A stretch of DNA of 64,000 nt from Anolis carolinensis (taxonomy: Eukaryota). Made by a program: the position numbers and the translations under genes. The DNA lies in NCBI RefSeq assembly GCF_035594765.1, contig NW_026943820.1:4408193-4472192 (forward strand). Direction: 5' to 3'. Under the pieces are notes generated by a model that did not search any database, was not told the origin of the DNA, and saw only the letters and a list, made by a program, of their open reading frames with translations. This document shows positions 51,779-51,903 of this stretch, one piece after another (position 1 is the stretch's first letter; every line of letters begins with the position of its first letter).

Positions 51779-51903
51779 GTGGAGCAGGGGAGCGCCTCCT
51801 GATGCCCGGCACGGGCTTCTTGACCCTCGGAGCGGCCGGAGCCCTGGCCTTTGCCCTCATGGTGCGGGAGGAATACCCGGACATCCCCTGCAAGCTCAAT
51901 GAG
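51779..51903 (+). CDS. SDR-like protein exon 5
   Basis: (G)GAGERLLMPGTGFLTLGAAGALAFALMVREEYPDIPCKLNE|gttggt; 125 nt. Confidence 0.9.

What the first reader, a model, noticed from the sequence alone, without database searches (positions are those of the whole stretch)
51779..51903. The SDR-like protein keeps its NADP(H)-binding half but lacks the catalytic YxxxK: candidate redox-sensor pseudoenzyme
Seen: the N-terminal Rossmann motifs are present (VVLGGAGTVG glycine loop; ISR with a basic residue at the end of beta-2, typical of NADP(H) preference; GDV at beta-3; VVSSLG at the NNAG position). Where classical SDRs have the catalytic Ser and then YxxxK, the protein reads TFITGGAG and PGTGFLTLGAAG (51817-51834), with no Tyr or Lys. 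Established: atypical SDRs lacking the catalytic Tyr, such as NmrA and NMRAL1/HSCARG, act as NAD(P) redox sensors. Inference: this is a non-catalytic nucleotide sensor or an enzyme with unusual chemistry; the SWWQGG segment may form a distinct ligand pocket.
Basis: partly seen in the sequence, partly recalled or inferred. Interest (0 to 1): 0.7.

Follow-up and report, generated by a model that had tools for sequence, protein, structure and literature searches.

The report
Ancient dehydrogenase family lacking catalytic residues
This lizard gene encodes an uncharacterised short-chain dehydrogenase whose four textbook catalytic residues are all replaced; its relatives from sharks to bacteria also lack the catalytic tyrosine and lysine, and it is likely an NADPH-using reductase with unconventional chemistry rather than a redox sensor, though neither role has been tested.

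Summary
The interval is exon 5 of a six-exon gene. Its 247-aa product is identical to Anolis carolinensis LOC103281771, an orthologue of zebrafish si:dkey-238o13.4. Ungapped alignments to solved SDRs place Leu120, Gly148, Leu162 and Ala166 at the catalytic Asn, Ser, Tyr and Lys. Neither Tyr143 nor Tyr180 is placed to substitute. The loss is family-wide: no Tyr or Lys at those two sites in 97 vertebrate, 111 distant or 57 bacterial-genome relatives. The sensor reading is only partly supported. The protein scores as a classical single-domain SDR and fails Pfam's NmrA cut-off. Active SDR-fold reductases without the Tyr are published (SimC7, QOR2, TMR, PECR, BVR-B). The most conserved segments are the loops that line the substrate pocket in classical SDRs. 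Bacterial relatives sit divergent from MarR/HxlR regulators in 9 of 38 loci. Best reading: an NADPH-dependent reductase of an activated, conjugated substrate (0.5). A non-catalytic sensor remains possible (0.27). Orthologues occur in fishes, amphibians, most reptiles, monotremes and marsupials; none from placentals, birds or snakes was listed. I found no functional study.

The parts
42002..42098 (+). Coding exon 1 (residues 1-33): strand beta1 and glycine-rich loop GGAGTVG
   Evidence: a pyrimidine tract plus AG just upstream suggests a further non-coding exon (inference)
48193..48300 (+). Exon 2 (33-69): Ser40-Arg41 after beta2 (Arg codon 48216-48218; NADP(H)-type signature) and GDV after beta3
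   Evidence: Arg41 in 96 of 97 vertebrate and 105 of 111 distant relatives
48670..48809 (+). Exon 3 (69-115): beta4 and the family-specific Trp99-Trp100-Gln101 loop (48759-48767), predicted wall of the substrate pocket
   Evidence: Trp99 and Trp100 97 of 97 in vertebrates; 87 and 79 of 111 in distant relatives
50271..50367 (+). Exon 4 (116-148): helix alpha4 with Leu120 (catalytic-Asn position, 50283-50285) and Thr124 (50295-50297; His in most non-vertebrate relatives), then beta5 with Tyr143 at its start
51779..51903 (+). Exon 5 (148-189), the finding: Gly148 at the catalytic-Ser position, Glu152 (51790-51792, candidate acid), Leu162 (51820-51822) at the Tyr position, Ala166 (51832-51834) at the Lys position, Tyr180 (51874-51876) past the end of helix alpha5
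52014..52190 (+). Exon 6 (190-247 and stop): beta6, lid region and C-terminal elements

Best explanation
The gene encodes a conserved single-domain SDR-fold protein that lacks the whole Asn-Ser-Tyr-Lys tetrad and is likely an NADPH-dependent reductase that would transfer hydride to an already activated, conjugated substrate (quinone, enone, imine or tetrapyrrole type) without needing a tyrosine acid. Shown: gene structure, residue replacements and their family-wide conservation. Predicted by modelling: the classical SDR fold. Inferred: NADPH preference from Ser40-Arg41; a flat aromatic pocket from Trp99-Trp100 with the glycine-rich 148-151 loop and Phe161-Leu162; the proton from solvent, from the substrate itself, or from Glu152; His124 in non-vertebrate members standing in for the missing Lys at the nicotinamide ribose; a detoxifying or catabolic role. 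The substrate is not identified.
For: Register. Fold: model of the 237/247-identical A. sagrei protein, pLDDT 89.8; best match Z 24.3, rmsd 2.6 A over 217 residues, among near-tied classical SDRs. In 97 vertebrate homologues the two pocket-lining segments are the most conserved: mean column conservation 0.97 (89-108) and 0.96 (143-167) against 0.83 overall. Polar residues recur at the site: acid at Gly148+4 in 95 of 97 vertebrates, 54 of 111 distant relatives and 40 of 57 bacterial-genome proteins; His124 in 96 of 111 and 55 of 57. 38 of 57 bacterial proteins keep a G/T-P-V-x-T-type motif after beta6, at the place of the classical nicotinamide-binding motif (the role of that motif is recalled). 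Bacterial context: a divergent MarR or HxlR gene lies upstream in 9 of 38 de-duplicated loci, 5 of them adjacent, against 3 other MarR-like genes elsewhere in 570 kb of the 58 loci. Neighbours include zinc-binding dehydrogenase-family, pirin, OsmC, NmrA-like and F420/NADP oxidoreductase genes. Precedent: SimC7 (Ile/His for Tyr/Lys, substrate-assisted), QOR2 and TMR (PMC5039031); PECR with Tyr to Phe, and BVR-B without Asn, Ser or Lys (PMC2792337).
Against: No activity or binding data exist. SimC7, QOR2 and TMR keep a His at the Lys position, and SimC7 needs it; here that position is Ala, and vertebrates also lack His124 (Thr in 95 of 97). The post-beta6 Gly and Thr are not kept in vertebrates (Asn193; position 198 variable), so nicotinamide anchoring may be weak. 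A conserved pocket fits a ligand-binding sensor as well. Glu at Ser+4 also occurs in the ordinary SDR 1VL8, and about half the distant relatives lack an acid there. 29 of 38 bacterial loci show no such regulator and no neighbour recurs across phyla. I had no control set of ordinary SDR genes, and the background profile was built from the upstream hits. Bacterial members are only about 30% identical to the lizard protein. I could not inspect model coordinates.
Confidence: 0.5

Rival explanations
1. Non-catalytic NADP(H) or small-ligand sensor: it binds the cofactor and changes its hold on a partner protein, working like NmrA/NMRAL1 without being a member of that family.
For: All four catalytic positions are non-polar or Gly in 96 of 97 vertebrate homologues. 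The adenosine-phosphate half of the site is well kept (segment 35-42 conservation 0.92). SDR-fold sensors without classical active-site residues exist (PMC2792337). SDRvv lacks the tetrad (PMC8659612) and binds NADPH with Kd 3.5 uM (PMC4171110).
Against: Fails Pfam's NmrA cut-off. Conservation peaks in pocket loops. Bacterial members sit as apparent targets of separate MarR/HxlR regulators in 9 of 38 loci and have no recurring partner gene across phyla.
Confidence: 0.27
2. Non-redox enzyme or adenylate-binding protein: the fold binds NADP(H), or only its 2'-phospho-ADP part, as a structural ligand, and Glu152 or His124 carries out an isomerase, cyclase or lyase step.
For: Both nicotinamide-ribose anchors (Tyr, Lys) are gone and the post-beta6 motif is degenerate in vertebrates. 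SDR-fold lyases without hydride transfer exist (halohydrin dehalogenases, abstract of PMC2792337).
Against: The glycine loop and Arg41 are intact across the family, and 38 of 57 bacterial proteins keep the post-beta6 motif. No invariant catalytic pair is shared by all clades (invariant columns: none).
Confidence: 0.13
3. Inactive scaffold subunit of a hetero-oligomeric SDR, like the petunia benzaldehyde synthase beta subunit or the inactive subunit of BbsCD.
For: Such subunits are documented (PMC13418739). Aromatic residues on helices alpha4 and alpha5, the usual SDR dimer face (recalled), are nearly invariant in vertebrates.
Against: The gene is single-copy with no close paralogue in the genome. 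No classical SDR recurred among the immediate neighbours scanned in bacterial loci. The petunia beta subunit also lost a cofactor-binding Arg, whereas Arg41 is kept here.
Confidence: 0.1

Closest known systems
Zebrafish si:dkey-238o13.4 / Anolis carolinensis LOC103281771 (uncharacterised)
   Same: It is this gene: 247 of 247 residues match XP_062817932.1; teleost orthologues are about 65-70% identical.
   Different: No function is assigned. Database names such as PECR-like, farnesol dehydrogenase-like, L-fucose dehydrogenase-like or HSD17B14-like conflict with each other and look automatic.
Classical SDRs (1VL8, 3RKR, 3TN7, HSD17B14, FabG)
   Same: Single-domain Rossmann fold of about 250 aa; Pfam adh_short above cut-off; Z 22-24.
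   Different: Only about 14-26% identity; all four catalytic residues replaced; NNAG replaced by SSLG followed by the WWQG loop.
SimC7, E. coli QOR2, triphenylmethane reductase
   Same: Active NADP(H) reductases with Ile/Leu at the Tyr position, acting on conjugated substrates; QOR2 and TMR are detoxifying (PMC5039031). This is the closest mechanistic analogy.
   Different: SimC7 is a two-domain extended-type SDR, and all three keep His at the Lys position (I/LxxxH). This protein has LxxxA in a classical fold.
Human peroxisomal trans-2-enoyl-CoA reductase (PECR, 1YXM)
   Same: First Foldseek row (E 4.3e-15, TM 0.74); an active enzyme with Tyr replaced by Phe.
   Different: 22% identity and effectively tied with many other SDRs. 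The C-terminal tripeptides of orthologues vary (GNL 25, GKI 11, RNL 9 and others of 98) and do not fit a canonical PTS1 (consensus recalled).
NmrA / NMRAL1 (HSCARG)
   Same: SDR-fold proteins lacking classical active-site residues.
   Different: Different subfamily: the Pfam NmrA match is below cut-off and limited to the glycine loop. NmrA keeps MxxxK.
SDRvv (Vibrio vulnificus atypical SDR)
   Same: Reported to lack the tetrad and to bind NADPH (second-hand).
   Different: I could not read the primary paper or compare sequences, so kinship is untested.

Membership tests
SDR superfamily (classical-type fold) | Single-domain Rossmann fold of about 250 aa with seven-stranded sheet | tested here: met
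   Model pLDDT 89.8; Z 24.3, rmsd 2.6 A, 217 aligned; adh_short 48.3 bits against cut-off 26.6
SDR superfamily (classical-type fold) | Glycine-rich dinucleotide-binding loop after beta1 | tested here: met
   GGAGTVG, a GxxGxxG variant of TGxxxGxG; its glycines in 88-91 of 97 homologues
Classical catalytic SDR | Catalytic Asn-Ser-Tyr-Lys tetrad with YxxxK | tested here: not met
   Leu120, Gly148, Leu162, Ala166; Tyr and Lys at those sites in 0 of 97, 0 of 111 and 0 of 57 relatives
NADP(H)-preferring SDR | Basic residue after beta2 and no acidic residue at the beta2 end | tested here: met
   Ser40-Arg41 in 96 of 97; rule from PMC2792337. Sequence signature only.
NADP(H)-preferring SDR | Measured NADP(H) binding | not testable with these tools
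   needs ITC or fluorescence
NmrA-like sensors (PF05368) | Whole-protein match to the NmrA profile above the curated cut-off | tested here: not met
   19.5 bits against 27; residues 13-52 only, of a 298-position profile
NmrA-like sensors (PF05368) | Closest structural neighbours are NmrA/HSCARG-type two-domain proteins | tested here: inconclusive
   The listed rows are near-tied classical-type SDRs; an unlisted family is not excluded
NmrA-like sensors (PF05368) | Redox-dependent binding to a partner protein | not testable with these tools
   no candidate partner
SimC7/QOR2/TMR group | I/LxxxH motif in place of YxxxK | tested here: not met
   LxxxA; His at position 166 in 0 of 111 distant relatives
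PECR orthologue | Orthologue-level identity and a peroxisomal targeting tripeptide | tested here: not met
   22% identity; variable C-termini

The most novel reading that the evidence does not exclude
An undescribed SDR family shared by bacteria, algae, amoebozoans, molluscs, tunicates and vertebrates performs hydride transfer with a new active site (Trp-Trp pocket, Glu152, and His124 outside vertebrates). In vertebrates it marks an unknown metabolic or detoxification step that fishes, amphibians, most reptiles, monotremes and marsupials kept and that placental mammals, birds and snakes lost independently.
Probability: 0.3. Interest if true: 0.72.

Novelty: new variant of a known kind. Interest (0 to 1): 0.48.

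Why it matters
SDRs without the catalytic tyrosine are known both as sensors and as enzymes, so the bare observation is not surprising. What stands out is a classical-fold family without the Tyr and Lys anywhere from bacteria to marsupials, at about 60-79% identity across jawed vertebrates, with an invariant WWQ loop and no functional study that I could find. Finding its ligand would give either a new SDR chemistry or a new vertebrate NADPH sensor. Its apparent absence from placentals, birds and snakes makes a forward-genomics search for the lost pathway feasible, and zebrafish offers a knockout. It also shows that the automatic enzyme names on these proteins should not be trusted.

Tried and rejected
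Pseudogene, frameshift or mis-splicing as the cause of the missing motif: rejected (GT-AG introns, open frame, RefSeq identity, orthologue conservation). Three wrong exon-boundary sets broke the frame and were corrected. Displaced Tyr/Lys pair: Tyr143 starts beta5 and aligns to a core Ile of 3RKR; Tyr180 follows the end of alpha5. Among 116 aligned proteins one YxxxK string was found (P0265), off register in the preceding loop, and 3 of 111 have a Lys within 164-168. His106 as catalyst: rejected, it is Leu in this protein and in 5 of 97 homologues. Peroxisomal targeting: not supported. Solved structure of a family member: none stood out; NmrA, HSCARG and SDRvv were not among the listed rows, which does not exclude them. 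NCBIfam: none of the best 25 families shown per protein reached its cut-off. Conserved bacterial operon: recurring neighbours were mostly confined to single lineages. Expression: no RNA holder listed and no reads could be laid, so tissue expression and isoform use remain open. Literature: 'dkey-238o13.4' gave 2 papers, both table rows; six orthologue LOC ids gave 0; searches gave 0; some searches gave only other proteins. Supplements were not searched and may hold further expression data. Earlier scan findings: none. The tree is the quick version and is used only for the grouping of vertebrates with two rows, one of them a tunicate protein. No complex prediction was run, since no partner is proposed.

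Full report
Locus. The window is vertebrate DNA. All five introns are GT-AG and the frame is open for 247 aa. The product matches Anolis carolinensis XP_062817932.1 (LOC103281771) at 247 of 247 residues and is the orthologue of zebrafish si:dkey-238o13.4. A search of the own genome found only these six exons. The finding's interval is exon 5.

Observation. A profile of 40 vertebrate orthologues aligns without gaps across beta5-alpha5 to gluconate 5-dehydrogenase 1VL8. A 119-sequence family profile does the same to 3RKR. Both put Gly148 at the catalytic Ser, Leu162 at the Tyr and Ala166 at the Lys; Leu120 sits at the catalytic Asn. In the AlphaFold2 model of the A. sagrei protein (237 of 247 identical; pLDDT 89.8, pTM 0.89), Tyr143 starts strand beta5 (142-148) and Tyr180 follows helix alpha5 (162-179), so neither is placed to replace the catalytic Tyr. 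This rests on secondary structure and alignment; I could not inspect coordinates.

Conservation. Of 120 proteins fetched, 97 of 225-300 aa were aligned. Leu120, Gly148, Leu162 and Ala166 each occur in 96 of 97. A search of 50%-identity representatives found 354 proteins at E up to 1e-10. Of 141 newly listed ones, 111 of 215-300 aa were aligned, at roughly 25-36% identity. None of the 111 has Tyr at 162 or anywhere in 159-164, none has Lys at 166, 104 have Gly148, 105 have Arg41 and 37 keep Asn120. Named members come from tunicates, molluscs, Chlorella, the alga Spirogloea, Nematostelium and Myxococcales. A scan of bacterial genomes gave 58 loci. Of 57 proteins read from them, none has Tyr162 or Lys166; these were selected by a WWQ-containing pattern, so that motif is not evidence there. 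The loss is therefore a family trait, not a lizard defect.

What the family keeps. It keeps the glycine loop, Ser40-Arg41 (the NADP(H) rule, PMC2792337 passages) and the Trp99-Trp100-Gln101 loop (97, 97 and 96 of 97 vertebrates; 87, 79 and 58 of 111 distant relatives). It has an acid four residues after Gly148 in 95 of 97, 54 of 111 and 40 of 57, and His124 outside vertebrates in 96 of 111 and 55 of 57, where vertebrates have Thr (95 of 97). Mean conservation in vertebrates is 0.97 for 89-108 and 0.96 for 143-167, against 0.83 overall, 0.81 for the lid region and 0.71 for the C-terminus. In classical SDRs those two segments line the substrate site (established knowledge, recalled).

Fold class. 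Pfam adh_short passes its cut-off (48.3 against 26.6 bits); NmrA does not (19.5 against 27, residues 13-52). Foldseek and VIA-align return near-tied classical-type SDRs at about 14-26% identity: first rows PECR 1YXM (E 4.3e-15) and 3IOY (Z 24.3, rmsd 2.6 A, 217 aligned). No solved family member stood out.

Bacterial context. After dropping 20 loci as lineage repeats, 38 remained, a few with short upstream flanks. Nine have a divergent MarR or HxlR gene upstream. Five are adjacent (L012, L013, L014, L018, L056). Four lie beyond one or two intervening genes (L009, L026, L047, L050); L050, about 3 kb away, I added by hand from the clusters. Profiles built from these nine found two lineage repeats and 3 further MarR-like genes in the 570 kb of all 58 loci, each about 3 kb or more downstream. 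Other neighbours are mixed: pirin (3 loci), zinc-binding dehydrogenase family (2), isochorismatase and amidohydrolase, OsmC, NmrA-like, glyoxalase, F420/NADP oxidoreductase, Sir2, and many unrelated genes. That MarR/HxlR regulators often control electrophile and quinone detoxification genes is recalled. The signal is a minority pattern and lacks an ordinary-SDR control.

Mechanism. I favour an NADPH-dependent reductase that needs no protein tyrosine because its substrate is conjugated or otherwise activated (0.5). Precedents were read as passages. SimC7 has Ile/His for Tyr/Lys and uses substrate-assisted catalysis, and QOR2 and TMR detoxify conjugated compounds (PMC5039031). PECR has Phe for Tyr, and BVR-B lacks Asn, Ser and Lys (PMC2792337). 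Against this reading, those enzymes keep a His at the Lys position, which this family lacks, and the vertebrate branch has also lost His124 and the post-beta6 Gly/Thr. The rivals are a non-catalytic sensor (0.27), a non-redox enzyme or adenylate binder (0.13), and a scaffold subunit (0.10; precedent in PMC13418739 passages). Nothing here measures binding or turnover.

Distribution. Orthologues are listed from chimaera, sharks and rays, bichir, sturgeons, gar, bowfin, teleosts, coelacanth, lungfish, amphibians, turtles, alligator, tuatara, lizards, platypus, echidna and marsupials. With a lizard query (best 120 of 219 hits) and a wombat query (best 120 of 206, down to about 60% identity) no named placental, bird or snake protein was listed, and none appeared in the eight vertebrate clusters opened. 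The unlisted hits and unnamed rows were not examined, so loss is likely but not proven. In the window the gene lies between SPATA2L-like and VPS9D1-like genes, downstream of CDK10. From recall, human 16q24.3 has the same order with no coding gene between SPATA2L and VPS9D1.

Literature. The zebrafish gene name occurs in 2 held papers, only as table rows: down 4.5-fold in brown-trout liver after estradiol (PMC4556936) and down in zebrafish brain after mild injury (PMC5752677). Six orthologue ids gave no paper. I saw passages only of every paper cited. SDRvv is known to me second-hand (passages of PMC4171110 and PMC8659612). The library lacks most subscription journals and I searched no supplements.

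Verdict. The feature is real, conserved and apparently uncharacterised. It is a new variant of a known kind (tetrad-less SDR). The sensor label is an unproven analogy and an unusual enzyme is somewhat more likely. Interest 0.48.

Noticed in passing
window 11427-57065: Gene order: SPATA33-like (DUF4609, 11427-11696, +), CDK10 (exons about 16078-28231, +), SPATA2L-like (PUB-like, 32600-35937, -), this SDR (+), VPS9D1-like (VPS9, 56826-57065, -). A sturgeon gene model (P0371) fuses CDK10 to this SDR, probably an annotation artefact that shows old synteny.
   Followed up: partly
No named placental, bird or snake orthologue among the listed hits, while monotremes and marsupials keep the gene: possibly three independent losses.
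   Followed up: partly
window 37960-38050: Short GC-rich stretch between SPATA2L-like and this gene with two ETS-type CTTCCGG sites and a perfect CRE palindrome (motif identities recalled). It may be a promoter shared by the two divergent genes.
   Followed up: no
window 41822-42001: RefSeq isoform X1 (307 aa, P0324) extends the N-terminus through a pyrimidine tract that ends in AG just before the ATG at 42002; it looks like a retained intron end.
   Followed up: no
PDB 8HJW and 8HI4: A C-terminal, degenerate SDR-like segment of these roughly 1220-aa multi-domain proteins (recalled as malonyl-CoA reductases) aligns weakly (E above 100) with a THHF stretch on the family's His124 position.
   Followed up: no
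P0168 (Spirogloea): A 566-aa protein with two tandem copies of this domain.
   Followed up: no
window 46883-47353 (-), 49130-50000, 59349-59609 (-): Intronic or intergenic repeat remnants: a 156-aa frame that resembles the C-terminal end of a non-LTR retrotransposon ORF, an imperfect tandem repeat in intron 3, and a mariner-like transposase fragment (resemblances recalled, not tested).
   Followed up: no
L011, L016, L022-L024, L028, L030-L032, L034-L036, L043: In Acidobacteriota loci the SDR often lies near a di-haem oxidoreductase (DHOR) gene (6 loci) and a large unannotated downstream ORF; this is lineage synteny only.
   Followed up: no
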